A stretch of 59,133 nucleotides of DNA, the filler included, from Babesia bigemina (taxonomy: Eukaryota): the NCBI RefSeq assembly GCF_000981445.1. It is 10 parts of 10 records of this genome, joined end to end, with 100 filler letters (N's around TTAATTAATTAA, not from the genome) between each part and the next. Parts side by side here need not be neighbours in the genome. Positions count along the whole stretch, not along the records: positions 18,271 to 36,169 come from NW_012237377.1; 9 more parts are not named here. One strand, 5' to 3'. Positions 18,171 to 59,133 of the stretch are shown here, in pieces. A model generated the notes under the pieces. The model saw only the letters and a list, made by a program, of their open reading frames with translations. It ran no database searches and was not told the DNA's origin. How positions within the stretch are numbered: the stretch's first letter is position 1; each line of letters opens with the position of its first letter. Position numbers and translations under genes: made by a program.

Positions 18171-18270
18171 NNNNNNNNNNNNNNNNNNNNNNNNNNNNNN
18201 NNNNNNNNNNNNNNTTAATTAATTAANNNNNNNNNNNNNNNNNNNNNNNNNNNNNNNNNNNNNNNNNNNN
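18171..18270. other. Artificial contig linker
   Basis: N44 TTAATTAATTAA N44. Confidence 0.99.
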
Positions 18271-18347
18271 GTAGAGTGGATTAGGGAGCGGTGTAGGGTG
18301 GATAAAGGGGCGATGTAGAGTGGGTAAAGGGGCGATGTGGAGTGGGT
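18271..18347 (-). repeat. 21-bp satellite A, edge of array
   Basis: 3-4 units, then junction sequence TAATAATCACCACTT. Confidence 0.9.
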
Positions 18348-18363
18348 AATAATCACCACTTCG

Positions 18364-18925
18364 GTCATGTCATCGCTGCCGTAACCATGTCATCGCTGCC
18401 GTGACCATGTCATCGCTGCCGTAACCATGTCATCGCTGCCGTAACCATGTCATCGCTGCCGTGACCATGTCATCGCTGCCGTCACCACGTCATCGCTGCC
18501 GTGACCGTGTCATCGCTGCCGTGACCATGCCATCGCTGCCGTGTCCATGTCATCGCTGCCGTAACCATGTCATCGCTGCCTAACCATGTCATCGCTGCCG
18601 TGACCATGTCATCGCTGCCGAGACCATGTCATCGCTGCCGTGACCATGTCATCGCTGCCGAGACCATGTCATCGCTGCCGTGTCCATGTCATCGCTGCCG
18701 TGACCATGTCATCGCTGCCGTGTCCATGTCATCGCTGCCGTGACCATGTCATCGCTGCCGTGTCCATGTCATCGCTGCTGTAACCATGTCATCGCTGCTG
18801 TGACCATGTCATCGCTGCCGTAACCATGTCATCGCTGCCGTGACCATGTCATCGCTGCTGTAACCATGTCATCGCTGCTGTGACCATGTCTTTGCTGCCG
18901 TAACCATGTCATCGCTGCCGTAACA
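18364..18925 (-). repeat. 20-bp satellite B, about 28 units
   Basis: Tandem GTCATCGCTGCCGTRACCAT. Confidence 0.97.
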
Positions 18926-18928
18926 TTA

Positions 18929-19115
18929 ACTTGGTCAGGTGCTTGGTCATCACGTTGGTCAGCACATTGGTCAGCACTTTGGTCATGGCATTGGTCAACA
19001 CGTTGGTCAGACATTGGTCACCACTTTGGTCAGCACCTTGGTCAGCACTCTGGTCATGGCATTGGTCAGCACCTTGGTCAGCACATTGGTCATCACGTTG
19101 GTCACCACTTTAGTT
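18929..19115 (-). repeat. 12-bp repeat C (TTGGTCA core), about 15 units
   Basis: Direct reading. Confidence 0.9.
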
Positions 19116-19233
19116 AACTATTACACAATCACATACAACGATTAATGAGTGATTCAAAACATTAGACAACAATTAGTTGTATAGGTGAGTAGGTGATGCT
19201 AGGTGAGTGTAGATAGTGAACACGTGAGTACGA

Positions 19234-22200
19234 TTATGGTTGCAGATAAAACACTTTGCCCAGTTTGTTAACACGTGCTGCGGCGAGTAGTGATTGAGCG
19301 GCTATACGATGACTCGAGGGACTATGTAGATGCGATTTGATGTGGAGCAGGTCGAGGCGGATGACCATGATGTGGAGGAGGTACAGGACAGAGAGGAGCC
19401 AGAGAGCGAGGACAAGGTAGGAGAAGGGTTCGCGGATTCTCCACAGTAACATGTCGCATTGCTTAAATAGGTCAGTGAAATAGTCGGAGTTAACAACATT
19501 GTACAGGTGACTTCGCATGTTGAAGCAGTTTCTTTTTAACGATATCAAATTCTGCGCATCCCTGAATGTGAAACCGTATTGGTATAACGTTGGCGATACG
19601 CCGTTGCAATGCACAACGGAAGTACATTGGCAACCCGTTCCTTTCTCCGCCGGATTAAGCATACCATGACTCTCTCCCTTGCATATATCGGTATGCAAGC
19701 AGTTCCTGCATCCCCAGTCTTCACATCTTATAGCCTTAAACGCGTCGAGGAGACTTGCAAGATATTTATGGAATGTCCACGGCAAGTAAACTGCCCATGA
19801 CAGGTACGAGTTAGATTGCTTGTTGACAAGGTAATGATAAGTGTCGCAGCTTAGGGGGGATAGGTACGGGACGCAGTGCTCCTGAGTGATGCAGGAATTG
19901 GTCAGTGAAATGCACGACAGATTAAGTTTATTGTTGGTACGATTCGGGCTGCGATGCTCGGTTGGTGTATTGCCATAGGCTTTACACATCGGTGTTGTCA
20001 ACTCATCCGTATTTTCATACAGCTTGATGGAGCTAGCGTTAATAGAATTTGCGATGGTGTCTGCCAATGTTTTAATGCCGTCAACCTTACTCTGCTTTGA
20101 AGCACTAAGTCCCTTGGCAAGTGACACTGCAAACTGGAAGTGCTCCGGCAAGTTAGTTGGAGGCCTGGGTGCGAGGGTGAATAGACACGCAATAATACCG
20201 TTGCCTAATATCTCTTTAATAATGCGGCATAATTGTTCACCCGTTTTAATTGACCCAGAAAAGCCTCTGAATCCAAGGGGCGTTAAGCATGGCATTCCAG
20301 GCTTATTACCGGGGCACGTTTTGCATTCGGATTTACAACCGACATTCGTGAGCTGATGAGGCAAGTGACCCGGCAAACAGTCATTTAAGTAACTCATCAA
20401 CGGAGAGGTTGGCTGGCAATTTGGTTGACTGTTTGGTTGACTGTTTGGTCGGCACTTTGGTTGACACTTTGCCTGGCACGTTACTTCCTCCGTTGATCTG
20501 TCGTTACAATGCGATTTGGTCGTAGGCACATTTTTACCGTACTGGCAGTCCGCCCAACCGAACTCCATGGCCGAATAACTACACTTGGATTCGAGGAATC
20601 GGAACACGGAGAGCAATCTACGAAGCATGTCGACTAACATTGGCAAGCAGTCGTCCGCCGTCTTAGGGTAATGCAGCTTGAGGGAATTGTTTGCGTATTC
20701 GCAGGCGTACCTGGTGTGCTCATCACCTGTGCCGGCGATTCTAGCCAACACGTCGTATGATTTGGAGCAAATTAGTTCAATCACAGCATAGATATCTTTA
20801 TATGTGAACTTATGTGGATGCGCATCCAGGTAGTACGCGTTTTCATCATCGAACTCAATTTCAATTCCCGAGTCACCGCTATCTATGGCTTGCTTCTTAG
20901 GTTTATCAAGCAGCTTGGTGATGCCGCCAGGTAACGCTGAATATACGGTACTATGAGGGAGCCCTGAGAACCAGCAGAGTATTTCGTATATACTGCACGG
21001 ATGCCTTTTGGAGAATAACGTTGATAGATGACATACTTCGTTATACTCGTCGAGGTGACTGTAGAGGCATGCTATGAAATCCATGATATTAAAGTTCCAT
21101 TCTTTCTCCCGTGATCTACACTGCGGAACGTGTTCTAGATTCGACATTTGTATGATCTTACCGAGAATTCCATCGATATGTTTGCCAGTGAACGTATGTC
21201 TGCACTGCAGCTCCCCGTCCTGATGCGACTTCTGACTGGTAGGAACAATGTAACCGCACTGCTTGAGGAACTCACCAAGAGGGTTTTCTTTATCAATTTC
21301 ATCTTTAAGATGTATAGCTTTCTTGCTCCAACTACCCTCGCACCTCCTCTTCAACTCCCCGAGGTCCTCCACCCACATCGGCAGGCAGCTCATAAACACC
21401 TTGGCGCAGCGCGTAGCGTCGGCGGCTGTCTCCTGTTTGCCGCCCTTTACCTCCTCCCAAGTAATTCCCTTACTACCACAATACCTATTAACATACGCCT
21501 TTTCCATCTCCTTTACCAGCCCTTGCATCCCTGCCTTCAGCGCATCCAGGAGTTGCGGGTGGTGCGGGTTCGCGAAGGTAGCGGGGTCGAACGAGGACAG
21601 GGTGGAGGTCAGGTCGTGGAGGAGGGAGCGGAAACCGGAGTCAAAGGTGAAGGTGCGTTTGTTGTCGTGGAGGTGGGACAGGAGGGCGTGGGTGCGGGCT
21701 TGGAGGCCGGCGACCAGTTGGGAGGAGGGGGTGGGGGTGAGTTGGGAGGTGATGTAGGTAAAGAGGGGATGTAAGTAATGTCTAATTTTATCTGCTGTCC
21801 ATTTTGACTCTTGTACGCCCGTAAGTTCCGTAAGTGTTTTGTGATTTTGATTCATGTACCAGAGCAGGCACTTGATACCGCTGGCTCTGTCCTCGTCGAT
21901 GATGTGATCGATGGCGGAAATTTGAGTGGAGACGAGGGATCTGAGGGCTTCTAAGTCCGATTTGTGTTGGATGGCATACATTTTTCTCACATGGGTAGTG
22001 ACGACGGTAAAGGCAGATTCGGCTTTAGTGAGGAGGGTTGTTTTGAGTTCTGAGACAGCTTTAACAAGCGACGTTTTGGCAGTTTTTGAAGTTTCTCGTA
22101 AAGCTTTTATGGCATCTTGTAGAGCGCCGTCAGCAAGTTCTACAGCTTCACTAATGGCTCTTACTTTTGTTTTAATCTTACTTCTCAAGACCTCCATCTT

Positions 22201-25200
22201 CTGTAAAGCATTCTGCCTAGCATTGTCGACTTTTTTTGGAAGTGATTCTAAATCGTTGATTATGCTATTCATATATCGTGCATTGGTGTTTGACGTGACT
22301 TGTGAAACTCTTTTCTGTAGCGCTTCAAGGTTACTATATATATCGGTCAGTTTATCCACTTCGTCAGGGTATATACCATTATCGTCACCAACCATGGCTC
22401 CGAGTTTTGCCAAATGGTAACTAAGACTATTGTTTTTTCCCCCATCGCTCTTCTCGACCAAATCCTTAACGGCGCCGGTAAATTCGCTGAGTCGAGTGTA
22501 CACCGCTAGAAGGGCATCGGAGAGTACAGTTGCAGTAATAAATTCGGTACCATTGTTATTCAACGCTCCTGTTACTTTTGTTTCAATATCCCTAATTTTC
22601 CGGGGCAGTGTGCCTCCCAGCTTATCGAGTGGACCCGAAAGGCTGGATTGAGTAATTTGGCGTTCATAATTTAGAAAAACTCCAGCCTTTAAACTGACGC
22701 TGTTGGTTGTATGATCGTCGCCAATGGCGGCATTAAGTTTTCCGTATACATCACTTTCAAAGGCTGACTTTCCTAGCTTACCGCTGAGACCATCGTAGGC
22801 GCCTTTAAAAGCATTCATGAGGCCATCTCTACCATTTATCTGTATATCATTTTTGCCAGTACCTGGAATATGTTTTTCAACTTCCGCAGCGACATCCTTG
22901 TCGGCGTTATACATTGAAAGATCAACCGAGGTGCCATCTGCGGATACAAGAGTGGCGGAACCAGAGACAATTCCAGTATGGCGGTCACTTTGAGCTTCAA
23001 CAAGATTATTGAGAAGAGTCTCCGCTGTTTTGTAAGCGTCGTCCACATTCACAATTTTTGATTGCTTTAGTTGGTCCTGGAGATCGGTAAACGCTTTCAA
23101 CTCCGTGGCGGCTTGATTGGCTGTGTATTACAGCGCTATTACAATGTAACGGACGGCAGCCTGAAGATAGTTTTTCAGAGTTCGTGTTTTGTTAGCCTTT
23201 TTCACTGCTTTATCTTCGATTGCATCCACTATGCCATCGACAAACGCATCGCTACTAGCGGTGACATTCATAATTGTTATTTGATCATTAAGCTTCCTCG
23301 CAAACCCACTTATGCAAGCGTGTATTTTTTGAACGCATTTCGAGATGTCATCATCGTCAGAAACTGAAGTGAAAGTGAAAGCTCCTGAGATCCCCTTCAG
23401 CTTGTTCTTGATCTGCACTGCGATGTCATTGATTCTTCCCGATTCTATGGCACAATTATTCTCGTTCACATATTGCGGCTCGAAATACTCCCTTCCCTTG
23501 TTCTTTTGAACGTACTGCTCAATATATTTTCTCACCACGTTATTATTTTTTAAAATGTTTTCTAACCATATTATCACCGTATTCTCAAACCCTGTTGTCT
23601 GCTTGAACTGCTTTGCATACGTCGAAGTGACGTGTTTCACATATCCGTGCAAACCGTTGCCATTTCCATCATTGCCCTTAATAGCGCTAACTTGCGTCTG
23701 AATTGTTTTGAGAAGATTCTTAACATGGTTTTGCAAACTACTGACAAGCTTCATTTCTAAGCCATGTAAATCCCCTTTCACATTATTTTCTAGACCATCC
23801 CAATACTGTGTCTTCAAAAGATTGACATGACTCCAAATTTCATCTCTTATTCTCCCTTTCACAATTCGTAAATCTTTCTTAAGCTCCTCGTCCATTGTCT
23901 TAACAGCCTGTAATGCCACATTAATACTACTTGTAAGTGCTTTCTTAGCCTCCGCTATGGACGTCATAAATCTATCAGCCTTTTCTTTTAGATTATCAGC
24001 TGCGAATTGAACTTTTTGATATTCCGCACTTGAGAGCCTATCTTTGTCTAGTTTCATGATAATGTCACCAATCTTTGTTTTCACTGCATAAACGACATCT
24101 TGCGCCTTTTTTTTCCATTCATTCAACTTGCGATTCTCCGTTACCATGTCCACACGAATGTGCGTCGTATCCATCATCATTGCGCTGAATTTCTGCTTCA
24201 GGTTAGAATCGGATGTTTCAGTGCTCGTAATATCACTCATTTGGTCGTTCACATCTGCAAAGAGTTTTTCGATTTCATTTCTGTAATCGTTGCTAAATTC
24301 GTCATGTAAAAACGCATCAGCTTCTTTCAATTTTTCGTGGATACCTTGAAACTGATCTTTTTTCTTATCTTCCAAAGCGGAGACGCTTCGACGAATTTTA
24401 TATAATTCCTTATGCACATCATCTCCGACTTTTTCACACACCTGATCGACGTGTTTCTTAACGTCATTCCTTTGCCACTCCAACTCTGCGTCCACCCTCT
24501 GCACCTGTGTCAACAAATCCGGATTTTTTGCAGATTTATTTAACATTTCTACCGATTTCTTAACAATCTTTATCTCATTCATTACGTTGGTTTTTAACGA
24601 TTTATCAAGCTCACTAATTTTATCTTCTTCAATTTGGCTGACGTCAAAGTCAATGTTACCGATAACCTCCGACCAAGTCGACAGCTGATCAGTGAGGGAA
24701 GAGTTTTCATTAATTTTATTTTTGTAATTACCGTTCATATTATTAATTAACCAAGTTAATTCATCTGTTACTTTTTTGGTTTTATCATTTATCTCCCTCT
24801 CATACCCCTCCAACCACTCCTTCACCGCGCCGACAGCATCCGCAAGCCCTTCACGCCCGGAGCCAATTTTACTATCTACAAGTTTGAGAACACTTTTAAG
24901 CTTTTTAGTGTCTCCACTGATGTAATTATCATAAGTTGTCACCTCATTTTCGTTTTTCACCGCATCAAGCACACCACTCAAAAACGCCATCACCCCGTCA
25001 CACAGCCTGTCCAGGTCGGAGTACACAATCCCAGTGCCATCGTAGCCTTTGGAAGCAGAGTTGAAGCCGAGGAAAGTCTCGAGGCCAGTGCAAAGGTTAG
25101 TAAGGATGTTAGTAGGGTTGTTATTTGAGGTATTTTTGAGGTTCAAAATTTCATCGAATTTCTTGCCAGGCTCCCTAGGCGGCACACGGTCAGGGCAGTG

Positions 25201-25269
25201 GCAAGAGGTAGAAGAGAGGAAGTGAAGGGTGACAAGGCACAAGTTATTAGGATGGTTTATAGAGGTCAT
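19234..25269 (-). pseudogene. ves1: Full-length ves1b-type gene (2011 codons) with a single in-frame TAA at 23130..23128
   Basis: ORFs 23128..25269 and 19234..23100 are in the same frame (offset 2169 nt). Reads AVRYIVIAL*YTANQAATELKAF versus AIRALLTALQSTVQRINDELQTF in the 29829 paralog. C-terminal TM and tail are intact. Confidence 0.85.
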
Positions 25270-25296
25270 AGCGGTATTAAGGCGAGGTAATTCAAG

Positions 25297-25907
25297 GGAT
25301 GTGGAGTGGGTTAAGGGAGCGATGTAGAGTGGGTTAGGGAGCGATGTAGAGTGGGTTAAAGAGCGATGTAGAGTGGATAAAGGGGCGATGTAGAGTGGAT
25401 AAAGGAGCGATGTAGAGTGGATAAAGGGGCGATGTAGAGTGGGTTAAGGAGCGATGTAGAGTGGGTTAAGGAGCGATGTAGAGTGGGTTAAGGGGCGATG
25501 TAGAGTGGGTAAAGGGGCGATGTAGAGTGGGTTAGGGAGCGATGTAGAGTGGATTAAGGGGCGATGTAGAGTGGGTTAAGGGGCGATGTAGAGTGGGTTA
25601 AGGGGCGATGTAGAGTGGGTAGAGGAGCGATGTAGAGTGGGTTAAGGGGCGATGTAGAGTGGATAAGGGAGCGATGTAGAGTGGATAAAGGGGCGATGTA
25701 GAGTGGATAAAGGAGCGATGTAGAGTGGATAAAGGGGCGATGTAGAGTGGGTTAAGGAGCGATGTGGAGTGGATAAGGGGCGATGTAGAGTGGATTAAGG
25801 GGCGATGTAGAGTGGATAAAGGGGCGATGTAGAGTGGGTTAAGGAGCGATGTAGAGTGGGTTAAGGAGCGATGTAGAGTGGGTAAAGGAGCGATGTGGAG
25901 TGGGTAA
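25297..25907 (-). repeat. 21-bp satellite A, complete array of about 29 units
   Basis: Both ends visible within one contig. Confidence 0.97.
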
Positions 25908-25929
25908 TAATCACCACTTAGGTCACCAC

Positions 25930-27871
25930 TGTCATCGCTGCCGTAACCATGTCATCGCTGCCGTGTCCATGTCGTCGCTGCCGTGTTGATGTCATCGCTG
26001 CCGTGACCATGTCATCGCTGCCGTGACCATGTCATCGCTGTCGTAACCATGTCATCGCTGCCGTGACCATGTCATCGCTGTCGTAACCATGTCATCGCTG
26101 CCGTAACTATGTCATCGCTGCCGTAACCAAGACATCGCTGCCGTAACCAAGACATCGCTGCCGTGACCATGTCATCGCTGTCGTAACCATGTCATCGCTG
26201 CCGTGACCATGTCATCGCTGTCGTAACCATGTCATCGCTGCCGTAACCAAGACATCGCTGCCGTAACCAAGACATCGCTGCCGTGACCATGACATCGCTG
26301 CCGTGACCATGTCATCGCTGCCGTAACCAAGACATCGCTGCCGTGACCATGACATCGCTGCCGTGACCATGTCATCGCTGCCGTAACCATGTCATCGCTG
26401 CCGTGTCCATGTCATCGCTGCCGTGACCAAGACATCGCTGCCGTCACCACTGTCATCGCTGCCGTAACCATGTCATCGCTGCCGTGTCCATGTCGTCGCT
26501 GCCGTGTTGATGTCATCGCTGCCGTGACCATGTCATCGCTGTCGTAACCATGTCATCGCTGCCGTGACCATGTCATCGCTGTCGTAACCATGTCATCGCT
26601 GCCGTAACTATGTCATCGCTGCCGTAACCAAGACATCGCTGCCGTAACCAAGACATCGCTGCCGTGACCATGACATCGCTGCCTCAACCATGTCATCGCT
26701 GCCTCAACCATGTCATCGCTGCCTCAACCATGTCATCGCTGCCGTGACCGTGTCATCGCTGCCGTGACCATGTCATCGCTGTCGTAACCATGTCATCGCT
26801 GCCGTAACTATGTCATCGCTGCCGTAACCAAGACATCGCTGCCGTAACCAAGACATCGCTGCCGTGACCATGACATCGCTGCCTCAACCATGTCATCGCT
26901 GCCTCAACCATGTCATCGCTGCCTCAACCATGTCATCGCTGCCGTGACCGTGTCATCGCTGCCGTGACCGTGTCATCGCTGCCGTGACCATGTCATCGCT
27001 GCTGTAGCCATGTCATCGCTGCCGTGACCATGACATCGCTGCCGTGACCATGTCATCGCTGCCGTGTCCATGTCGTCGCTGCCGTGTTGATGTCATCGCT
27101 GCCGTGACCATGTCATCGCTGTCGTAACCATGTCATCGCTGCCGTGACCATGTCATCGCTGTCGTAACCATGTCATCGCTGCCGTAACTATGTCATCGCT
27201 GCCGTAACCAAGACATCGCTGCCGTAACCAAGACATCGCTGCCGTAACCATGTCATCGCTGCCGTGACCGTGTCATCGCTGCCGTGACCATGTCATCGCT
27301 GCCGTAACCATGTCATCGCTGCCGTAACCATGTCATCGCTGCCGTGACCGTGTCATCGCTGCCGTGACCATGTCATCGCTGCTGTAGCCATGTCATCGCT
27401 GCCGTGACCATGACATCGCTGCCGTGACCATGTCATCGCTGCTGTAGCCATGTCATCGCTGCCGTGACCATGACATCGCTGCCGTGTCCATGTCACCGCT
27501 GCCGTGTCCATGTCATCGCTGCCGTAACCATGCCATCGCTGCCGTAACCATGTCATCGCTGCCGTTGCCATGTCATCGCTGCCGTGACCAAGACATCGCT
27601 GCCGTAACCATGTCATCGCTGCCGTAATTATGTCATCGCTGCCGTGACCATATCATCGCTGCCGTGTCCATGTCATCGCTGCCGTGACCAAGACATCGCT
27701 GCCGTGACCATGTCATCGCTGCCGTGACCATGTCATCGCTGCCGTAACCATGTCATCGCTGTCGTAGCCATGTCATCGCTGCTGTGTCCATGTCATCGCT
27801 GCTGTGTCCATGTCATCGCTGCTGTGTCCATGTCATTGCTGCCGTGTCCATGTCATCGCTGCAGTAACCAT
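25930..27871 (-). repeat. 20-bp satellite B, about 97 units with higher-order duplications
   Basis: Tandem units; variant blocks recur. Confidence 0.97.
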
Positions 27872-27873
27872 CA

Positions 27874-27980
27874 ACTTGGTCAGGTGCTTGGTCAGCACTT
27901 TGGTCACCACTCTGGTCATGGCATTGGTCAGCACTTTGGTCAGCCACTAGGTCACTCACTGCTCATGTGATTGGTCAGCA
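27874..27980 (-). repeat. 12-bp repeat C (TTGGTCA core)
   Basis: About 7 degenerate units. Confidence 0.85.
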
Positions 27981-28077
27981 ATGTAATCATTACTCTGTCT
28001 AGCACATTAGGTGTAGTTGCCAGTCAGGTGATCTGTGGGATTTGGATTACGATGTTTGCGCTAACACATTGCTGAGA

Positions 28078-28960
28078 TCAGCTGTAGAACGCGATGCAGA
28101 AGGGTATCTTGCGTACGAGGAAATCGCGGATGTTGCGGCCCACCGGAAAGCGGAAGATGCACAGGTCGAGCAGGATGATGGCGACGATGAGGGCAACGAT
28201 GACGGCGGCGATGGCTTTGGGGTCAGGGCGGAAAGGTGGAGCTTTGTTTTCTAGCTTGAGAGCTTCGGGAGGAGATTGATGCTCTTGTTTGGCGGCTTGT
28301 TGCTGAGCTTCGGAGGAATCAGGGAGAGAATGTTGACTGGTGGAATGAAGGGAGGCGGCGGCAAGGCGTTTACTTTCCTCTTCACGTTTATGTAAACAAC
28401 ATTTACACTCACATTGACATGTATTCCCGTTGCCTCTACATTGGTCGTTACATGGCGTAGGTTCGCACTTGTAAGACCTCAGGTTACCAGTGCGCTTATT
28501 GCGATCATACCAACATCCATTGCAATTGCCAGAAGATTTAGTACACTCAACACAACACCAATAACAACAGATACAATTGAGAAACCTACAACTCGTAACA
28601 CACGTACACTTCCGCCAATCCAACCCTGACATCTTCCCTCTCCCTCCCACTCCCCTCAAGCTGCAAACATATCAATTACCTAAGCAAACACTCACCAACT
28701 GCAACACGTACCACTGCCGCTCCCAGTCCCCTCAACCTGCAAACATATCAATCACCTAGCAAAGCACTCACCAACTGCAACACGTACACTGCCGCGCCCA
28801 GTCGCATCAACCTGCAGACATATCAATCACTAACCAACGCACTCACCAACTGCAACACGTACCACTGCCGCTCCCAGTCCCCTTAACCTGCAAACTTATC
28901 AATCACTTAAGCAGCACTCACCAACTTCAACACTACCACTGCCGCTCCCAGTCCCCTCAT
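28078..28960 (-). CDS. Predicted 5-exon, 247-aa small Cys-rich membrane protein with a ves-family-like C-terminus. Exons 28960-28922, 28887-28847, 28811-28772, 28736-28696, 28660-28078.
   Basis: Last exon is the 193-aa ORF (Cys-rich domain, TM IAAVIVALIVAIILLDLCIF, tail RFPVGRNIRDFLVRKIPFCIAFYS). Four GTGAGT...TGCAG introns of 34-35 nt splice to a stop-free 744-nt frame from ATG 28960. Confidence 0.6.
28644..28960 (-). repeat. About 75-bp tandem repeat, about 4.2 units, each one mini-exon plus one mini-intron
   Basis: Unit on - strand: GTTGAGGGGACTGGGAGCGGCAGTGGTACGTGTTGCAGTTG|GTGAGTGCTTTGCTAGGTGATTGATATGTTTGCAG. Confidence 0.92.
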
Positions 28961-29476
28961 CAACACGCACCCTCACCCCTGTGTCCCCCCAGCCCAGGCC
29001 ACCGACACCCACGCTGCCCAGGATACCACAGATGCCCTGACGCGACGCATGTGATCGGCACCAACTGTCACTCTAAATTATTCACTATTCGCAACGCCAT
29101 TAAAATTGCAGCGAACCCCGTGCGCTCAACTCCCACAGTGCAGCAGCACCGTGCTACGAGCCGCCGTATCGGCGCCATGCTGGCGGAGCGTGTCGGCTAC
29201 GTGCCTAAATGTGATATCAACATTCGCTACATCGCCGCCTATAAACGCTACTTAACCAGACCAACGCGGATTACGCCACCCTGCCAGTGACTCGCAACAG
29301 ACGGCTTAGATCACCCGCCGCGGTCTTCACGACCGCCTATGTTAGCGACCAATCACCCAGCCTCACGTGACACTGACTCAATGGGCAACGCGGACGCCTC
29401 TCACAGTCAACGCACAGCTCAACGCAACAACTAATCAACGTGCTACAACACCCACCAAATTACGGTTCATCCGCCA

Positions 29477-29682
29477 GCTTAGCACGTTGCCTGGTTGCTA
29501 GGTTAACACTTTGCCTGTGTGCTAGCTTAGCACTTCGCCTGGGTGCTAGCTTAGCACTTTGCCTGCTTGCTAGGTTAGCACCTTGCCTGGTTGCTATCTT
29601 AGCACTTTGCCTGTGTGCTAGCTTAGCACGTTGCCTGTGTGCTAGCTTATCACTTTGCCTGGGTGCTAGCTTAGCACGTTGC
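29477..29682. repeat. 24-bp tandem repeat GCTTAGCACTTTGCCTGTGTGCTA, about 8.6 units, internally palindromic
   Basis: Units start at 29477, 29501, 29525 and so on; TAGCAC...GTGCTA arms in the consensus. Confidence 0.95.
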
Positions 29683-29828
29683 ATTGTCGTTTACTCATAA
29701 CCCAATTTAGGTGCTATTTAGTTTACAGGTTGCCGCTAGAGTAATTCGAGACATTAGACTACGTTTGTCGGTTAGGTGAGTAGGTGAGTAGTTACGTGAG
29801 TTGCTGTGAATTACAATCGTGAATACAA

Positions 29829-32800
29829 TTACGGCTGTAGATACGATATCTTGGCAAGCCTTCCGACTTGCGCTGCCGCCAACAATGATTGCGCCGTTAT
29901 CCTGTGCGACGACGGTGTTCGCAGGTGTGAGCGTATGTGGAGCACATCCAGTCTGCCAACCATTACGCAAATGAGGTAGAAGAGGGACAGTGACCAGAGC
30001 GCGACGTTCATCCACAAGAAAGGTGCGCGGATGGTGAACATGAATTTATCAATGGCTTTGAAAAACTGCACAAGATGTGAGTCCTTCTCAAATGCCTCCG
30101 CAAATACATAGCAGAAATCTCTGCACGTGCGTTTCTTCTCAATGCCTGCGCTTCCGTTCAGCCTCTCTGGATCGCCGAGAACGAAGCCGTACTTCGCCAA
30201 TGTCGGCAGCGTAGCATTGCACTGTACAATGGATTTGCAATTGCGATCGTGATATCGTGGCGGATCTTTTTTGGATGTAGTAGGACACCCCTTGATGCAC
30301 GATTTACCATGGCAATTCGATCCCCTGGCACCGCATTTGGAATTGCACTCATCATACAATTTCTTAAGCAGATCGTAGAACGATGCCGTCAGGTAAACGA
30401 TCCACGACAAATACTTATCGGCGTGTTTTGACGAGAACGTCTCGTAGATGGCGTGAGTGATGGGCCGCAAATAAGGACCGCATACTACGGCGTCCCTTGA
30501 TAAGCATACGAGACTGCCCAGGCTACCATCGGAGTGGCCCTTCTTCAATGCTGAGTGACTAGGGGTAAATAAGTGGTAGACGTTCAACTCACCATAACTA
30601 CGTCCGAAATTGGCTGCTTTAACTTTCTCCTCAAATGCCTCTTTCTTGTGTTTGTTACCGTGCATACCCCAGCGATCGGTGAGGTGATAGTAGAAGCTGA
30701 ACATGTCCGTTAGTGTTTTCGGAGCACTGGGTAGCAGGCAGTTGAGGTAACCGCACAGTCTAGTGAGAGGGGAGTTAGGACGGCCACAAAAATCGTAAAG
30801 CACCTCGCATATATTGCGGCCCATCATCGTATGCGACGCGGTGGCACCGATGTCAGCGAAGCCCATCGGAGTTCGGCACGGCATACCAGGTGTACTACCA
30901 CACGTGCCACATGACAGACTGGATCCCCTAGCCGTAACCGAATGCGGCAGGTGGCCTTTCAAACCGTCCTCCAAGAACGATTGCAGTGGCGACTTGACGC
31001 CGCAGTTGGGATATTGGCCACCCGTTTGGTTGCCACTTTGGTCATGCCGTTGGTCGCAGTCTTGCTTAGGGCACTGCTTCGTGTTGCACTGCCAGCCCGA
31101 CCCACCGATGTACCTGCCGTAGTGGCAGTCCCTCCAGCCGCTGAGCTGAGTTGTAAGTTGACACTGCTGCAGCAGGAAGTACAGCTGGTGGTAGAGGCGC
31201 TTGAGCAGGTCGAACAACGTACACAGTAACTGAATCATGCTGGTTGGGTAATCTAACTTGAGCGAGTTGTCGGAGAATTCACACGCGTAGATTCCGTCCT
31301 TGTGACCGTGGCCTAGTATAGCAGTGAGGACGGCGTGGGAGTGGGCAGACACATTGTAGAGCTGCTTTTCGACGTCAGTGTATTTGACAGGTGACGGGTG
31401 CGCTTCGAAGGGCTGCAGCGTTTTAGTACCCGGCCTTTGCTTGTCCTCCTTCATGAACTCAGATTCAACGTGCTTCTTGAACCTCTCGTACACGGGGTTG
31501 AACTGCAGGCCGCAGCACCAGACGAGAATTTCGTAAACGGAGCAAGGAGCCCGGGGTTTCTCAATACGAGTAAGGTGGCATACGGTGAAGTAATCGTGTA
31601 GACTTGAATATAGCTTTTGAACGACGCCATCATCCGTGGCGACCTCTACGGTCAGGTCAGCAGAACCATCGGTACGGAGAAGTGAGGCATCCGCGGGCTC
31701 ACCTGCGACGAACAACTTATGTTCAGCGTTTGTGAGATGTTTGAGAATGCTGCTACCGTTGAAGTCTTGTCTGTGATTCAGCTCGCCATATGGAATGGTC
31801 GGCTGAGCACCAATGTCGTAACCCTGATCATGGAAGAATGTTTTGTGCAAACTATGATTGGGGTTCGTGGAATCGTACATTTTGTAGCTTTCCCAGCCTT
31901 CAGCATCAAGTCCAGATTTGAGGTGATCAAGTGCAGTGTATACAATGGGAATCATGCTTAGACACACCATTGCGCCACGTTTTCCGTCAAGTGTTAATTC
32001 GACATCTTTCTGTTTCGCACTTTCGGATGATGCCTTATCCTTCAGTGTGTCGACGGTAGTTGTCGTTTTAGATTTTTCGGAATCAGGCAGCTCTATCACC
32101 CAGTGCTTGATGGGCTTCGCTCCTTCGTACATGTTTATGTAGGTCTTGTCAAGCTCGCCAACCAGACCCATAAAACCTAATCTTAGAGCGTCTAGAATTA
32201 ATGCGGAAGACTCACAGAGCTTGTCGGATGTCAAGCCGCCAAGTGCCTTTCTAAGCCTGTTTAGGTAGTCCATGAACGTCCTATCATACCGCTGCGAATC
32301 TTCGATGGCAGTAAGCAGCATACGCAATGCGTCGTGTGACGGGTTGGCTTTACCAAAATTGTACGTAAGATCCGGCTGTTTAGCTAGATAATGGAAGAGA
32401 CGCTTTAATGCTCCGTAAAGTTTCGTTGATGCTTGGCTAAGCGGCGATTTTTGTCCAGGGGAAGCTTTATCCGGAATCTTTTTCAAGGCCTGCAAACCTT
32501 TCTCGTGCTTGAGGAACTGAGTGTCCATTATGCTCATAAACCCCTTAAATCCGGACTCCGACTCTTTAGTGATCAACCCAGGCAGCGGTTGTAATTCCGT
32601 CTCAGCTTTTGTTGAAAAAGCCACGAGCAGACCTTGTAGAGATGTAACGTACTGCTTTCTGGCTTGTGTGATTAAAGTCCTCTTAGCGCTCTCCACTTGT
32701 GAATCGACGTCTCTTCCTAGTGCCTGGATGGTGGCGGTACCGGAGTGGTCTACAGTTCCAAGAAATTTTTTGGCAGCATCCAGGGCTACTGCGACCGGAT

Positions 32801-35114
32801 GTTTCAAATCGTTGAAGGAGTGTTGAAGTTCCTGGAGTTCACCTTTATTGGGAGTTTTTCCAACCTTAAAATTTTTAAGGTTCTCTAATTTTTTGTTTGC
32901 GAAAAAAGCGGCATCAGATATTGTGCGTGTGAGCAACTTGAGAGTATCAGTAATTTTAGTGGACATCTCGGTAATAGCTTTGGTAGTTATCTCCACTGTG
33001 ATGTCGTTAATTTGGGATTTCAAAGAGCCGCCATCTTCTTTCAGTATTGGGTCGAGATCGTTAACTCTCCCTGTCACAGCCGACAATGAATCAGTGATCT
33101 GTCGAGCTAAACTAGTATTGTGATTGTCATCTATGCTAATGTTTTGTTTAATCTGTTTGATCTTGTCTACAGTGCCCTTCACGTTGATGCCGAGATCGCA
33201 TAGCGATACGGCAAATGTTTGCAGTTCGTCGTTAATTCGCTGTACAGTGGATTGTAAAGCTGTTAGAAGTGCACGAATCGCAGACTTAAGATGTGAATCG
33301 CTGTAGCTGATGTAACTCGGAGGCCTACCTTTGGTACAAAAAACACTCTCAATATCTCCGCATATCTCCTCCGCAAATTTCAATACCGCATTAGTTGGAT
33401 CATTGAACTTATCTGCTATCGCTTGCGCAAACCTACCGCAAACCTCCTGGACATATTCCACTTTCTTCTTCAAGTTCTTGCTTTTTATTACAACGTCGCT
33501 TTCTGCACGGGCACTGCTTATTTGGTTGCTCAGCTTATTCTTAATCCTCGTTGCGATTCCTTGAATATTTTTATAATTCAATTCATCTTTTTCGGTAGTT
33601 ACATATTCCGCATTAAACGGAAAGCCATTTTTTAATCTATCCTTATTTTCGCTTATATACCTCTTCATACAATATTTAACTGCAGCATTATTTTTTAAAG
33701 CATCACTCACCCACTGTTCCACCTTCTTTCCAAACTCATCCGCATTGAATCCACTAGCATACTCCTCAATACCGTTAACAATTTTATCTAGATGGCCATT
33801 TTTGATTGTATTTGTCACACCTGAACCCAGCGTTTGTAGTTCACTACTAAGGAAATGCCAATCCTTCACTAATCCCTGCTTACTTCCACCGACTTCTCCT
33901 TGAACGTTTAATTTCAACACTTTAAAATACTCTTCAACCTGCGTAACCAACCCTGTGAGTCCACCTTTTACTGTGCTCTCAATATACGTACTAAGCTCAT
34001 CCCTACGTTTCCTTAATTCCGTCACCGCATCCTCAATAGGATATTTCAGACTAGTAAGGCTGTTGTCGGTCTGCTCAGTAATTTTTTTCAGATGTCCCTG
34101 CGTGACTTCAATTTCTTTATCAGCATTGTTGATCCATTCCTGTAATTCGTCAACGTGCTGCGGCAGCTCTTTGTTTATCTTCTCAAGCTGCTGGAATATC
34201 GTCTGCACCATCTGCCTCAAACCGCGGATCAACTCATTTACTTTATTACCAATTTCGCGATTAACGCACGTACCAACACCTACGAGCGTTGTTTTAATAC
34301 ACGCCTCCAAGCTCTGAAAGCGCTCCTTCTCCTTCGCTGCCAACTCACTCAACCTGGTTTTCTCATGCACAACGGTCCTACGTACATTATCTATTCTATC
34401 ACGTAATTTATCACTAAGATCATTAATTGCGTTTCTAGTTGTTTCATCATTATTCTGCATATCTAAAGTTTTATTAAAGTCGGCGGCTCTCTTTTCATAT
34501 TCTGCCAACCTCCTCTGGACCTCTTCCGCAGCTTGTTCATATTTCAAAGTCTCATCTGCTACACGATTATTTTGTACAATTTCACTTACCGTTTTTTTGA
34601 GTCTCTTCATCTCTCTGTCGAAATCTGTTATTTTGTTCTTGACATGGTTGCTGGAATTTCTGACACCATCATTATACCTCCCCACCCCTTCGACCACCTT
34701 TACAATCGCATCATTAAAACCTTTTTTACCGGCGTGTTTATTGGTGTTAAGACTCTCAATTGCATCATTCAAAGTATCTTTATGCTGCCCTAAATGCTCT
34801 TTGATGTTACTGAGAACACCACTCAAAAATCCCATCACTGCATCACACAGCCTGTCAAGGTCAGAGTACACAATACCACTGCCATCGTAGCCTTTGGAAG
34901 CAGAGTTGAAGCCGAGGAAAGTCTCGAGGCCGGAGCAGAAATTAGTAAGGATGTTAGTAGGGTTGTTATTTGAGGTATTTTTAAGGTTTTAAATTTTGTC
35001 AAATTTCTTGCCAAGCTCCCTAGGCGGCACATGGTCAGGGCAGTGGCAAGAGGTGGAGGAAGGAAAGTGAAGGGTGACAAGGCACAAGTTATTATTGTGG
35101 TCTAAAGAGGTCAT
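29829..35114 (-). CDS. ves1: ves1b-type antigen of a second C-terminal subclass. Leader ATG 35114 is in frame but has TAA at 34991; open from 34988 to the stop; first downstream ATG is 34835 (MGFL).
   Basis: GIVYSDLDRLCD, KSPLQSFLED..GHLPH, GMPCRTPMGF, TM FLWMNVALWSLSLFYLICVMVG, tail RLDVLHIRSHLRTPSSHRITAQSLL...YLQP. Confidence 0.85.
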
Positions 35115-35141
35115 AGCGGTATTATGGCGAGGTAATTCGAG

Positions 35142-36169
35142 GGATGTAGACTGGATAGAGGAGCGATGTAGAGTGGATAAAGGGGCGATGTAGAGTGGGT
35201 AAAGGGGCGATGTAGAGTGGGTTAAGGGGCGATGTGGAGTGGATTAGGGAGCGATGTGGAGTGGGTTAAAGAGCGATGTAGAGTGGGTAAAGGAGCGATG
35301 TAGAGTGGGTTAGGGAGCGATGAAGAGTGGGTTAAGTAGCGATGTAGAGTGGGTTAGGGAGCGATGTAGAGTGGGTTAGGGAGCGATGAAGAGTGGATAA
35401 GGGAGCGATGTAGAGTGGGTTAGGGAGCGATGTGGAGTGGATAAAGGGGCGATGTAGAGTGGATAAGGGGCGATGTGGAGTGGGTTAGGGAGCGATGTAG
35501 AGTGGGTAAAGGGGCGATGTAGAGTGGATAAAGGGGCGATGTAGAGTGGATAAAGGGGCGATGTAGAGTGGGTTAGGGAGCGATGTGGAGTGCGTTAAGG
35601 GGTGATGGAGAGTGGGTTAAGGGGCGATGTAGAGTGGGTTAAGGGGCGATGTAGAGTGGATAAAAGGGCGATGTAGAGTGAATAAAGGGGCGATGTAAGG
35701 TGGGTTAAGGGGCGATGTAGAGTGGTTTAAGGAGCGATGTAGAGTGGTTTAAGGAGCGATGTGGAGTGGGTAAAGGGGCGATGCAGAGTGGGTTAAGGAG
35801 CGATGTAGAGTGGATAAAGGGGCGATGTAGAGTGGGTTAGGGAGCGATGTAGAGTGGATAAAGGGGTGATGTAGAGTGGGTTAGGGAGCGATGTAGAGTA
35901 GGTAAAGGGGCGATGTAGAGTGGGTAAGGGAGCGATGTAGAGTGGATAAGGGGCGATGTGGAGTGGATAAAGGGGCGATGTGGAGTGGATAAAGGGGCGA
36001 TGTAGAGTGGATAAAGGGGCGACTAAAGGAGGTTAAGGGGCGATGTAAGGTGGATAAAGGGGCGATGTAGAGTGGGTTAGGGAGCGATGTAGAGTGGGTA
36101 AAGGGGCGATGTAGAGTGGGTTAGGGAGCGATGAAGAGTGGGTAAGGGAGCGATGTAGAGTGGGTAAAG
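35142..36169 (-). repeat. 21-bp satellite A upstream of the ves leader, runs off contig
   Basis: Tandem units. Confidence 0.97.
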
Positions 36170-36269: not shown

Positions 36270-37784
36270 GTGGATATCGGAGCCTTCGGTGTTCTGTACT
36301 TTAGTGACGCCGGTGATAACTAATTGCAGTCTTTCGTTAATAGTATCTCTGATGTGTTTTATCACATTTTGCGTTGCCTTCAATTGACCATTTGAACGAA
36401 AATAGCTTTTAGTCACGTTAGTATGCGCATATGCATCAATCGACGAATATACTGGTTCTCCGGATTTGAAAACGTCTTCCAACCATTGTTCAACCTTTGC
36501 CTTGAAACTTTCTCCTTCAAACGTTTTGGCATAATCCTTGACTTTCTTTTCGATATTACCGAGATTGCTTGCTTGTTCACTCTCTACGTATATTCCGTCA
36601 ACAAGCTTACGAATGTGCGCCTGCAACGCCTCCCATTTATTCTCTATACTTTCCTCATTCGTCTCAGTTGTTCCGTTTTTTTGAACACCTTTGCGTATCG
36701 CATCAAACTCTTCATGAGCAAAAGCTGCCAAATTGCTCATTGCCAACGTGTTGGATTTTAAATTTCTATGAATTTCCTCAACCGCATTCCTAATGGTATC
36801 GAAATAAAACGTTATGTACGATTTGTAATCTACGTCCAATCTGCCAGCCTGCTTCAACGCTTCTTCCAGGAGCCCATTTATTATTTTAAAACGATCTTTC
36901 CTTGTTTTATTAAGCTCATGAATTCCGTCTAATATCATCGTGAATTTCTGCTCTAACATATATTTGACGTTCTCACTCTGTCTATTTATGTCGTTCTGAA
37001 GACGTTTCTTTTGCTTACGTAACTCATCGTCCACCCTCTTTGCCTGCTCCGCAAATTTTGCGCCGAATGCAGTATTTTTTAAAACATGTACTGCCCCTGC
37101 AATCTGATTCATTTCGCGTGTTATTTTCATTTTTAATGCGATGTCTAAGGTATCAACATCGTTTTCAATTTCAGTGACCGTTGATGATATACCGTCAACA
37201 GTCGACTGCCAGCGCTGCAACTGTTTTTCTAGGTTTTGAGTGGCATCTATTTCTGTTATTTTTGCGCTTATTTTATCGTCTCTCAAGGTTGCTAATTTAG
37301 AATTAACTGCCTCAGTCCGCTTATTCAACTCGGCAACATAGTCATGAAGTACACGCATCACATGGTCTATGCAAACACCAAATCCATAAACACCATTATG
37401 CATATTATCTAAAATTTTATTAAGGTCAAGTTCAGTTATCAAAGTGTATGTCTTAACGCTTGGATCATCTTTCACCGCACCAAGCACGCCACTCAAAAAT
37501 CCCATCACCCCGTCACACAGCCTGTCCAAGTCAGAGTACACAATCCCAGTGCCGTCGTAGCCTTTGGTCTCAGAGTTGAAGCCGAGGAAAGTTTCGAGCC
37601 CAGAGCAGAGGTTATTAAGGATGTTATTAGGGGTGTTATTTGAGGTAATTTTAGGGTTCAAAATTTAGTCAAATTTCTTGTCAAGCTCCCTAGGCGACAC
37701 ATGGTCAGGGCAGTGGCAAGAGGTGGAAGAGGGGAAGTGAAGGGTGACAAGGCACAAGTTATTGCTATGGCTAATGGAGGTCAT
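36270..37784 (-). CDS. ves1: ves1b-type antigen, 5' part. Leader ATG 37784 is in frame with TAA at 37667; next ATG is 37505 (MGFL); 3' end cut by the contig end.
   Basis: NILNNLCSGLETFLGFN..GYDGTGIVYSDLDRLCDGVMGFL followed by coiled coil. Confidence 0.8.
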
Positions 37785-41063: not shown

Positions 41064-41964
41064 AATAACAAAGCATCGCATCATTATGCTGCAAAATTGT
41101 AGTTCTACTTAATCAAAAATGCACCAATGCCTTCTTTATATCGCACGTTCACATTATATATCTAATCTCCATCGTTTTTTACTTTTATGTTGGTCAGGTG
41201 TTCATATTTGCCAAGGCACCGTGCTGAGATCGCTGCGTCATTTTTGCGTGTAATATGTCGTATAATGTGCGTCCCATGGCTGCGCTGCTATTCGCTACAT
41301 GCGCTGCCACCATGGCCGTAGATAGCGTGTCTGCAGGCAACGCTGCAATAATAAAAAATTTCGTGACTGAGTTACGCACGCGCCATAACGTTATACAATC
41401 AGTATTTGAAGAGTACAGCGTCGATTGCAAAATTTTCGTAGGTGCGTGTGATTCCTACCCGACAGGCAGCATTCAAAGGCAACGACTTAAGAAGCTATGC
41501 CGTCCACACACTCTCATGAGAGTGATAACTGTTCAAAAGTCGTTCACTTTTAATCAAATAAGAGCCAATGGTGATTGCATTGACCTTTGCTGTAAGGATG
41601 TGTATGAACGCCGCCGCTAGACACGGCAGCGCAATTGAGAAAAGAGACATTTGAGTATTGCTACACAATGTTGCAATTATAAGCGTTGGGTGTATCACGA
41701 ATGATGCGATTCTTTTGTGTTTGGATTTGTCTAGGCCACGTGCGAGGTTTCGCACTTTTTTGCATCAACGTACCTTACGGTCAACTAGATCGGTCGGCAA
41801 CGGTTCCTAGGCCTTCTTCTTTGTATAATATAGCTCATTGCGTCGTACTTTATTGTATGAGGTACGACTTAGCAGTATTTGTTTCCGTCCTTGCATCCAA
41901 TTTCGTGCAGACTACACTTAACACACTGATAGGTCTTTAAGTTATACACCAGATTCCGGAGGTC

Positions 41965-43015
41965 ATGATGGCACCTGTTTTGAAGCGCGTCGTGTCATTG
42001 TATGCTGCGCTGGCTGTGCCCCTTGTCCTCAGTGTATCTTATCGTACCCCGCGCTTGTCTAGGGGCATGAATGTGGACATGCCGTCCGAATCACTGGGAC
42101 AGGAAGACGCTGTTGCCAACGTATCGCGTGTCCGTCAAAGGTTGAATAAAGCCATGTCTCAATCTGCGGCTTATTTCAGTACAGTAGTTATGGATTCTGT
42201 CTGCAAGGGACGCAGGAGCGAAATGGAAGCTTGTCGCTCCGCGCTGCAACCCTACATGGCTCGTTGCGAGGATGGCGACTGTTTGCATATCGACATGGAG
42301 AGTATTGAGGTATCAGGAAGCACTAGTGTACCGCTACCTAATAAATTTCAACTGGATTGCGCCTTCGAGTTGTACAAAATGAGCTCTGCATTTCCATTCA
42401 GGGCTTTCCGCGGTATCGTAGCTCGATTCCAGAAAGGAGGACGCTACACTGCATACCGCGACTTTATATTGCATCTTATGTTGGCCAATGTGGAAGAAGG
42501 GACGTCAAGCGATTTTGAGACGTTCATGAAGAAATATCTTTTCATGGCGGCTGTCCAATACAAGACTTATTTGATGTTGGAAAACTGGAAAGTAAAACTC
42601 CAGAATATGACTGATTTATCGCATTTTATATGTGTGGACAAAATTGAACGATCTCTGGTTCAAATAATCGTGCAGACTGCACCCCAGTCCGCTATAGGAA
42701 CGCCTATAAGTGCGATTGACCATACGTGAAGAGCTTCGCTGCTTACATAAATTCGTTCCGACTCAATCATGAGCGATTTGCGGAATATATTCTTCAGTAG
42801 TCTTCATTGCGCTTATGTCGTCAATCAGCAACACTCGCCACAAGGAATTAAGAGCAAGGGATCACAAGCTGGAGCCCTGGAAAAACTTTTACCGGAAATA
42901 CGTGATGCCGGTATTTGGCGCATTTAAGGGCATGTACAGCTACGTGTCAGGTAAGGTCGTGAACTCGTTTGGCGGGTCAGCTAAGAGAAAGTTGCAAACA
43001 GAGGACGCCGCCTAG
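41965..43015 (+). pseudogene. rap-1b: rap-1b copy with two 1-nt deletions (about 42719 and 42787) and three substitutions; probably sequencing error
   Basis: 1051 nt versus 1053 nt in intact copies. GATTGACCAT versus GATTGAACCAT; GGAATATATT versus GGAATTATATT. Confidence 0.8.
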
Positions 43016-52179: not shown

Positions 52180-52237
52180 CCGTGCCTCCTGCAGAGGAAG
52201 CATGGAGTACTAACTACTGGACCATGAGGAAATTCCC
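52180..52237 (-). mobile_element. CHR-2-like cetartiodactyl SINE, 5' end fragment (host DNA)
   Basis: CCTGCAGAGGAAGCATGGAGTACTAACTACTGGACCATGAGGAAATTCCC resembles the reverse complement of the tRNA-derived head. Confidence 0.6.
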
Positions 52238-52310
52238 TATTTGAGGATTTTATCTCAGTATTGTTCTTCTTGTATCTTTTTTTTTTTTTTCTCACAGCTT
52301 TATTGAGGTA

Positions 52311-56171: not shown

Positions 56172-56271
56172 NNNNNNNNNNNNNNNNNNNNNNNNNNNNN
56201 NNNNNNNNNNNNNNNTTAATTAATTAANNNNNNNNNNNNNNNNNNNNNNNNNNNNNNNNNNNNNNNNNNNN
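56172..56271. other. Artificial contig linker
   Basis: N44 TTAATTAATTAA N44. Confidence 0.99.
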
Positions 56272-56951: not shown

Positions 56952-56953
56952 CA

Positions 56954-57744: not shown

Positions 57745-57796
57745 ATGTCACTGGTAAATATTTTGGACATATATCTTTAATCTGCTTACAGTAAGC

Positions 57797-59110: not shown

Positions 59111-59133
59111 TATATATATACTATATATAACAC

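What the first reader, a model, noticed from the sequence alone, without database searches (positions are those of the whole stretch)
28078..28960. Cryptic gene built from a tandemly repeated mini-exon/mini-intron unit read in alternating frames
Seen: the ~75-bp repeat upstream of the 193-aa ORF has, on the - strand, four canonical introns (28921-28888, 28846-28812, 28771-28737, 28695-28661; GTGAGT...TGCAG; 34-35 nt, a typical Babesia size). Exons of 39, 41, 40 and 41 nt splice without a stop from ATG 28960 into the last exon: MRGLGAAVVVLKL-VKGTGSGSGTCCSW-LMRLGAAVYVLQL-VEGTGSGSGTCCSC-LRGVGGRGK..., total 744 nt. The same DNA unit yields either a hydrophobic signal-like peptide or a Gly/Ser-CC linker depending on 1-2 nt indels. 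Skipping the second and third exons (81 nt) keeps frame. The product has a Cys-rich ectodomain, TM helix and ves-like tail, and occupies a ves slot in the cassette array. Inference: a miniature VESA-like protein with a repeat-derived N-terminus. Caveat: the units are stop-poor, so frame continuity alone could be chance.
Basis: partly seen in the sequence, partly recalled or inferred. Interest (0 to 1): 0.85.

Follow-up and report, generated by a model that had tools for sequence, protein, structure and literature searches.

The report
Overlooked Babesia cysteine-rich membrane protein family
This cattle-parasite gene is one of about forty look-alike, unnamed genes for small cysteine-rich proteins with one predicted membrane anchor, likely variable surface antigens, and the repeated intron-like units in front of it likely form a non-coding leader rather than the start of the protein.

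Summary
The four 34-35 nt GTGAGT...TGCAG elements, the exon lengths and the open 744-nt spliced frame are exactly as described. The ORF belongs to an unnamed Babesia bigemina family: 42 public records, with no hit from another species. Members share an 18-20-Cys scaffold, a Pro/Ser stalk, one TM helix and a near-invariant tail. There is no detectable homology to VESA. The repeat recurs in 19 of 42 models. In 13 of 17 informative paralogs, the frame leading to the conserved internal ATG is inferred, from predicted proteins, to open with the unit's own TGA stop. So the array is most likely a 5' leader built by duplicating an exon-plus-intron unit, and the protein the 184-aa product of ATG 28632. 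This copy's open frame is a minority state (about 1% by simulation). Splicing and expression are unshown. No parasite reads were available, and 0 of 36 members appear in a blood/kinete RNA table. Best reading: a PIR-like variant surface family, silent in the sampled stages. Interest 0.45.

The parts
28078..28632 (-). Main ORF, 184 aa plus stop, from the family-conserved internal ATG; likely the whole coding sequence
   Evidence: paralogs have a Met a few residues before the first Cys; A at -3
28396..28608 (-). Cys-rich domain, residues 9-79, 19 Cys; fixed Cys spacing (including CCxWCC and CxCxCC) with variable residues between
   Evidence: 18-20 Cys in 14 complete paralogs; fold not resolved, pLDDT 47
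28216..28395 (-). Charged helix, then a Pro/Ser/Gln-rich variable stalk, residues 80-139
28153..28215 (-). Predicted single transmembrane helix, about residues 140-160
   Evidence: hydropathy 3.2 over 19 residues; helix 138-160 is the only confident part of the model
28081..28152 (-). 24-residue basic tail, near-invariant in the family (type A)
   Evidence: last 31 residues identical in 31 of 38 type-A records
28633..28660 (-). 5' part of the last exon, a degenerate fifth unit ending in the AAGATG start context; 28 nt here (phase 1), inferred phase 2 in most paralogs
28661..28695 (-). Intron-like element 4 (35 nt)
28696..28736 (-). Unit exon 4 (41 nt), likely leader; third frame opens with a stop
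28737..28771 (-). Intron-like element 3 (35 nt)
28772..28811 (-). Unit exon 3 (40 nt; one base short at a different place than in unit 1; holds upstream ATG 28807)
28812..28846 (-). Intron-like element 2 (35 nt)
28847..28887 (-). Unit exon 2 (41 nt)
28888..28921 (-). Intron-like element 1 (34 nt)
28922..28963 (-). Unit exon 1, holding upstream ATG 28960 (T at -3); one base short of the 41-nt type
28964..29475 (-). Presumed promoter and 5' leader; ATG 29050 opens a 25-codon upstream ORF whose sequence recurs in three paralog models, not all in the same frame
   Evidence: transcription start unknown
29476..29682 (.). 24-bp tandem repeat between the upstream ves gene and this gene; found only here in the window

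Best explanation
The locus holds an intact 184-codon reading frame of a roughly 40-member Babesia bigemina family, whose product is predicted to be a small single-pass membrane protein and likely a variable surface antigen, and the 75-bp array upstream is likely a spliced, non-coding 5' leader. How it would work: transcription starts upstream of 28960 (inferred). The four mini-introns, made by tandem duplication of one exon-plus-intron unit, are removed (inferred from conserved ends). Ribosomes pass the weak upstream ATGs and start at ATG 28632 (inferred). The protein has no signal peptide (shown for the 184-aa frame) and would be exported through its TM helix, as VESA1 is thought to be (by analogy). 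A disulfide-locked Cys scaffold would display variable loops on a flexible stalk (inferred), while the invariant tail would carry a shared trafficking or anchoring signal (inferred). Most copies are silent, or uncounted, in blood stages and kinetes (absent from published tables). The open frame through the array in this one copy is likely incidental.
For: Family: 36 hits, 5 more, 1 more; all 42 labelled B. bigemina. Cys spacing is fixed while identity is 41-57% in the 29 of 36 hits not dominated by the tail or near-identical. Start site: 14 records match a Met-plus-complete-domain pattern. In 9 of 9 models that read the start context as Glu-Asp, the next residue has a G-initial codon, as an ATG requires; 33% of residues do. 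Leader: inferred phase 2 in 13 of 17 paralogs, where the in-frame reading opens with TGA. In 5 of 15 out-of-frame models the shifted frame from that ATG can spell the family's first Cys motif, against 1 of 15 in the control frame; all 5 are phase 2. Only 3 of 19 repeat-bearing models reach the Met in frame, and each shows a non-canonical joint; models show 16 cryptic-donor joints against 15 canonical ones. Context is A at -3 for 28632 and T, T, C for the three upstream ATGs outside the introns. Disulfides: two Cys after the last cluster are present together in 21, absent together in 14, single in 1 of 36, with 5 changes on a 14-row tree. Precedent: VESA1 has no signal sequence and a C-terminal TM (PMC6630957, passages); PIR proteins have this layout (PMC7749308, passages).
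Against: No transcript or peptide evidence. 0 of 28 named paralogs are in the B. bigemina PR proteome table of about 456 proteins (PMC4066756 supplement). 0 of 36 searched members are among the 3,721 genes kept at 1 read per million in blood stages or kinetes (PMC9806345 supplement). Paralog phases are inferred from predicted proteins, not DNA; P0012 and P0018 are the least sure. This copy keeps frame through two one-base losses at different places, which a simple model gives 4-6% of the time at its phase and about 1% overall. A 24-residue tail is short enough for tail-anchored insertion, which would leave the Cys domain in the cytosol (my knowledge). Charges beside the TM do not settle topology (+4/-2 against +4/-1). 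The Cys-pair result rests on only 2 independent pairs on well-supported branches. This copy has an odd Cys count (19).
Confidence: 0.5

Rival explanations
1. One reading: the array is coding. Translation starts at ATG 28960, the first unit is a signal peptide, and one-base indels in the array decide which copies join it to the Cys domain.
For: Open 744-nt path. Hydrophobic stretch close to that of rap-1a (2.5 against 2.72). Two frame-keeping losses at different positions, about 1% by simulation. Exons less diverged than introns, 7.5% against 16%. The same upstream Met begins 4 of 42 models, one of them this locus's own. A domain with up to ten disulfides needs ER entry.
Against: 13 of 17 informative paralogs are closed by an in-frame stop, yet 5 of them still appear to keep the domain in frame with the internal ATG. 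None of the 19 repeat-bearing models reaches the domain by canonical sites alone. Weak start context. With about 40 copies, one open by chance is not rare (expected about 0.3-0.4). The unit-3 loss is in a GG run, and the phase difference is likely in a G run (inferred), where assembly errors are common.
Confidence: 0.1
2. Same 184-aa protein, but the array is unspliced promoter or leader DNA, like the 12-, 20-, 22- and 24-bp repeats around the ves genes; the splice-like ends are incidental.
For: One founding unit has a 2.8% chance of such ends. Every gene cassette here has an upstream tandem repeat. No spliced read was seen.
Against: Variable columns avoid the ends (p 0.006-0.03). Canonical joints recur 15 times in public models, so the sites are kept in paralogs.
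Confidence: 0.15
3. The protein is tail-anchored with the Cys domain in the parasite cytosol, binding zinc or another metal; it is not a surface antigen.
For: No signal peptide in the 184-aa frame. TM ends about 24 residues from the C-terminus. CC and CxxC-like spacings.
Against: Hypervariable loops on a fixed scaffold in a 40-copy family; in this window the gene lies between ves genes. Paired loss of two Cys fits a disulfide. No metal-binding Pfam match in 14 members.
Confidence: 0.12
4. A silent or decaying repeat family, spread and homogenised by gene conversion, with few or no working genes; or, a ves 3' fragment.
For: 0 of 36 in the RNA table and 0 of 28 in the proteome. Tail-only records and doubled tails exist (P0037, P0042, P0033, P0035, P0036). 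Three neighbouring ves copies carry premature stops.
Against: Cys are conserved while other residues diverge, with complete frames in at least 14 records. No ves homology. Read counting may drop multi-mapping or strain-divergent reads (my knowledge), and sporozoite and gut stages were not in these tables.
Confidence: 0.13

Closest known systems
Plasmodium PIR (CIR/VIR/YIR) small variant surface antigens (PMC7749308, passages)
   Same: Multigene family; a Cys-stabilised, sequence-diverse domain that starts close to the N-terminus; variable flexible linker; one TM helix; small C-terminal peptide.
   Different: No sequence match to Pfam families or solved structures. Domain of about 70-90 residues with 18-20 Cys, against about 240 residues with five disulfides. 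Different genus. An analogue, not a homologue on present evidence.
Babesia VESA1 (ves1a/ves1b of B. bigemina; PMC4066756 sections, PMC6630957 passages)
   Same: No N-terminal signal sequence; Cys-rich region, then one C-terminal TM and a short conserved tail; this copy lies inside a ves array.
   Different: 184 aa against about 100 kDa or more; no homology to the conserved VESA C-terminal domain; its own upstream repeat.
B. bigemina VESA2 and B. bovis SmORF (PMC4066756, PMC9477259)
   Same: Short species-specific multigene families placed among ves1 genes.
   Different: Those have a signal peptide and no TM; this family has a TM and, from the likely start, no signal peptide; no homology to the window's ves 5' ends.
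Intron gain by tandem duplication of an exon-intron unit (for example PMC4974935, search listing only)
   Same: Several near-identical introns that arose by tandem duplication.
   Different: Here the array appears to lie in a leader and to recur across a gene family; splicing is not shown.

Membership tests
VESA1 (ves1) | [quoted passage not shown] | tested here: not met
   hhalign of A2 against 3 window ves C-termini: probability 0.2%, E 0.38 (shallow profile). Family HMM against six frames of the window: no ves hit, best other E 1.1. All 24 hits among 1.84 billion representatives are 65-280 aa. Longer-protein searches empty (weak evidence).
VESA1 (ves1) | Large size, about 100 kDa or more | tested here: not met
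   184 aa, or 247 aa if the array is coding.
VESA1 (ves1) | One C-terminal TM helix, short conserved tail, no N-terminal signal | tested here: met
   for the 184-aa product (prediction).
VESA1 (ves1) | Exposure on the infected red-cell surface | not testable with these tools
   Needs localisation.
VESA2 (ves2) | Homology to the 5' end of ves1b | tested here: not met
   Family HMM finds none of the ves N-terminal frames in the window; those ves copies were not typed as ves1a or ves1b.
VESA2 / SmORF | Signal peptide and no membrane anchor | tested here: not met
   A strong TM helix is present.
PIR | N-terminal Cys-stabilised variable domain, flexible linker, TM, short tail | tested here: met
   Layout; disulfides inferred only.
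PIR | Sequence homology to PIR families | tested here: not met
   No such Pfam match in 14 members; solved-structure search hits only an unrelated TM peptide at E 0.12-0.51.
PIR | The PIR helical fold | tested here: inconclusive
   Models at pLDDT 52 and 47, too poor for a fold search; none was run.
Spliceosomal GT-AG intron | GTRAGT donor and YAG acceptor conserved relative to the interior | tested here: met
Spliceosomal GT-AG intron | Removal from the transcript | tested here: inconclusive
   8 of 24 listed RNA runs were laid and gave 0 reads; they were not shown to contain the parasite, so this is no test.
   Inferred phase 2 (closed) in 13 of 17, phase 1 in 2, phase 0 in 2; inferred from predicted proteins, paralog DNA not available.

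The most novel reading that the evidence does not exclude
The exon-intron array is a phase-variation switch. One-base indels and unit gain or loss decide whether the upstream ATG's signal-like peptide is spliced in frame to the Cys domain (an ER-targeted, surface-displayed antigen) or ends as a repressive upstream ORF at the unit's own stop. A 40-gene Babesia antigen family would then be switched copy by copy through its splicing array, and this locus is a rare 'on' copy.
Probability: 0.08. Interest if true: 0.85.

Novelty: new variant of a known kind. Interest (0 to 1): 0.45.

Why it matters
B. bigemina is credited, in the papers read, with ves1a, ves1b, ves1ba, ves2, mfs, 6-Cys and rap-1 families. 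If the best reading holds, it also has an unnamed family of about 40 small variable membrane proteins of PIR-like layout, hidden in 'hypothetical' models of which at least 15 run out of frame across the true start. Corrected models would make the family searchable in existing RNA and proteome data and testable as stage-specific antigens; the near-invariant tail gives one primer or antibody for most members. The leader would be a natural series of recent intron duplications with upstream ORFs. Without any expression evidence the significance remains potential.

Tried and rejected
No whole genome is held for the window, so paralog DNA could not be read. Locus searches in prokaryotic, viral and metagenome contigs found no relative. 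Sequencing runs: no RNA holder listed; 8 of the 24 added runs were laid with 0 reads and were not shown to hold the parasite, so no test. Two AlphaFold jobs gave pLDDT 52 and 47; no fold search was run on them. ESM Atlas gave only generic small TM proteins at 0.86 or less, with low recognition. Pfam found nothing above cut-off. The leader has no unusual RNA structure (z +1.4). The bacterial promoter scan is irrelevant here and was empty. Earlier findings of the scan: nothing relevant. P0001 was rejected as evidence for a different unit number, because it can be spelled from the window's own DNA; it was dropped from the paralog phase count (17 of 18 rows kept). P0011 shows no start context and was never in that count. 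Positive-inside charge did not decide topology. Literature: searches and passages of seven Babesia genome, transcriptome or review papers showed no description of this family. Supplements not seen that could list it: the cluster table of PMC5660447, the VESA list of PMC9531838, and the ves sequence set cited in PMC4066756.

Full report
Setting. The window is Babesia DNA: it holds rap-1 genes (Pfam RAP-1) and long ves-type frames, and the closest proteins are labelled B. bigemina. It is made of pieces separated by N runs; the finding lies in the gap-free piece 18271-36169, between two ves-type genes on the same strand. The name ves for these genes rests on their C-terminal layout, a weak VESA1_N match in one copy (E 0.004) and recall.

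Observation. All coordinates hold. There are four elements of 34, 35, 35 and 35 nt with GTGAGTG and TGCAG ends, exons of 39, 41, 40, 41 and 583 nt, and an open 744-nt joined frame. Of 34 paths from ATG 28960 through these sites, 3 stay open. The units are copies of one, so the real sample is one founding unit: 2.8% of shuffled units carry such an element. Better evidence is that the 10 variable intron columns avoid both ends (p 0.006-0.03) and that introns have diverged twice as much as exons. I judge them probable introns. Splicing itself could not be tested: 8 of 24 listed RNA runs were laid, gave no reads, and were not shown to contain the parasite.

The protein family. The ORF has 36 relatives in the first search, 5 more in a profile search of 1.84 billion representatives and one more cluster member, 42 records in all, each labelled B. 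bigemina hypothetical protein. Whether the proteomes of sister species are in those libraries was not checked. Members share a fixed Cys spacing (18-20 Cys in 14 complete records) with very variable residues between, a Pro/Ser stalk, one TM helix and a tail whose last 31 residues are identical in 31 of 38 type-A records. A second tail type occurs in 8 records. There is no sign of VESA homology: hhalign gives 0.2%, the family HMM misses every ves frame in the window, and no long protein was hit. Pfam, the ESM Atlas, solved structures and two low-confidence models give no fold.

Is the array coding? The unit reads Val-Glu-Gly in frame 0 and Leu-Arg-Gly in frame 1, and opens with a stop in frame 2 in all three full units and the last exon. 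Only strict alternation of 40- and 41-nt units avoids that stop. Repeat-derived peptides appear in 19 of 42 public models, which lets the DNA phase be inferred. In the window the last exon pairs frame 0 with Glu-Asp, frame 1 with Lys-Met and frame 2 with Arg-Cys at the ATG 28632 context. Applying this to the 18 models that show both a unit frame and the start context gives phase 2 in 13, phase 1 in 3 and phase 0 in 2. One phase-1 row, P0001, can be spelled from the window's own DNA and is dropped, leaving 13, 2 and 2 of 17. At phase 2 the frame leading to the ATG begins with the unit's TGA, an in-frame stop shortly before the start codon. A weak GAG acceptor six bases further on could bypass it, and one model (P0012) may use it.

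Checks on that inference. In 9 of 9 Glu-Asp readings the next residue has a G-initial codon, as an ATG needs (33% of residues do; the rows are related, so not independent). In 5 of 15 out-of-frame models the shifted frame from the inferred ATG can spell the family's first Cys motif without a stop, against 1 of 15 in the other frame. Only P0003, P0012 and P0015 reach the Met in frame, each with a non-canonical joint, and cryptic-donor joints (16) are as common as canonical ones (15). A gene finder should favour open phases, so the excess of closed ones is likely not a selection artefact (inference). All of this is read from predicted proteins, not DNA.

Against my reading. This copy keeps frame through two one-base losses at different places; a simple model gives that 4-6% at its phase and about 1% overall. 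Over about 40 copies that is 0.3-0.4 expected, so it is unusual but not decisive. The extension's hydrophobic stretch is close to that of rap-1a. A 24-residue tail could make the protein tail-anchored with a cytosolic domain (my knowledge). Expression is absent where I could look: 0 of 28 named paralogs in the proteome table of PMC4066756 (control identifiers were found) and 0 of 36 searched members in the 3,721-gene table of PMC9806345 (neighbouring genes were found; 6 records were not searched). Sporozoite and gut stages were not sampled there, and multi-mapped or divergent reads may have been lost.

Mechanism. Shown: the ORF, the family, the conserved scaffold and tail, the intron-like array. 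Inferred: a spliced leader with weak upstream ATGs (T, T or C at -3, against A for 28632); initiation at 28632; export without a signal peptide, as described for VESA1 (PMC6630957); a disulfide-bonded domain, suggested by two Cys that are present or absent together in 35 of 36 records, with 5 changes on a poorly resolved 14-row tree and only 2 well-supported independent pairs. The layout matches PIR proteins (PMC7749308) without homology. I put this whole reading at 0.5; that the family's protein normally starts at the internal ATG, about 0.75.

Novelty. Searches found no description of the family or its identifiers. PMC4066756 does remark in general that many non-ves species-specific proteins have a conserved C-terminal end and a TM domain, which may cover it, and unseen supplements may list it as a cluster. 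What I saw of each paper: PMC4066756 abstract, passages, section 20, part 1 of section 22, part 1 of 11 of the proteome table plus searches of it; PMC9806345 abstract, section 10, part 1 of section 14, searches of its supplements; passages only of PMC10463595, PMC5660447, PMC9531838, PMC6630957, PMC9477259, PMC10471129, PMC12626333, PMC2612703 and PMC7749308; search listing only for PMC4974935.

Verdict. A coding, alternately read repeat is unlikely as the family rule (0.1), and the protein is not a miniature VESA. The better finding is an unnamed, mis-modelled family of small variable membrane proteins with a repeat-built, probably spliced leader: a new variant of a known kind, interest 0.45, limited by the lack of any expression evidence.

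Noticed in passing
window 34989-34991, 23128-23130 and 37665-37667 (minus strand): Three of the ves-type genes carry an in-frame premature stop, two of them about 40 codons after the start. Pseudogenes or sequence errors; not resolved.
   Followed up: partly
window 41941-42900: One rap-1b-type copy breaks frame near 42720, while the copies at 15235 and 46942 are whole.
   Followed up: partly
window 52180-59133: Pieces with reverse-transcriptase frames (Pfam RVT_1) that resemble a ruminant BovB-type retroelement (label recalled), plus a short CCCTAA array at 52914-52964. Probably host DNA in the assembly.
   Followed up: no
window 25298-27960, 18271-19108, 2133-2785: A fixed block of 12-, 20- and 22-bp tandem repeats lies between one gene's end and the next downstream position; the 22-mer directly precedes ves start codons, so the block may be a ves promoter module and not a 3' flank.
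   Followed up: partly
P0033, P0035, P0036, P0042, P0037: Four public models have a type-B TM-and-tail piece followed directly by a type-A TM and tail, and two records are little more than a tail; this suggests the tail moves as a cassette by duplication or gene conversion.
   Followed up: no
BBBOND_0312480 and BBBOND_0100170 (P0019, P0006): By identifier, these members lie next to genes that are raised about 47,000-fold and 1,100-fold in kinetes (PMC9806345 Table 2). P0019's gene is absent from that table, as is P0006's.
   Followed up: no
window, nine double N runs (for example 18171-18270): The window is a string of pieces joined by 44 N, 12 bases, 44 N, so gene order across these joins is not evidence of real adjacency.
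   Followed up: yes
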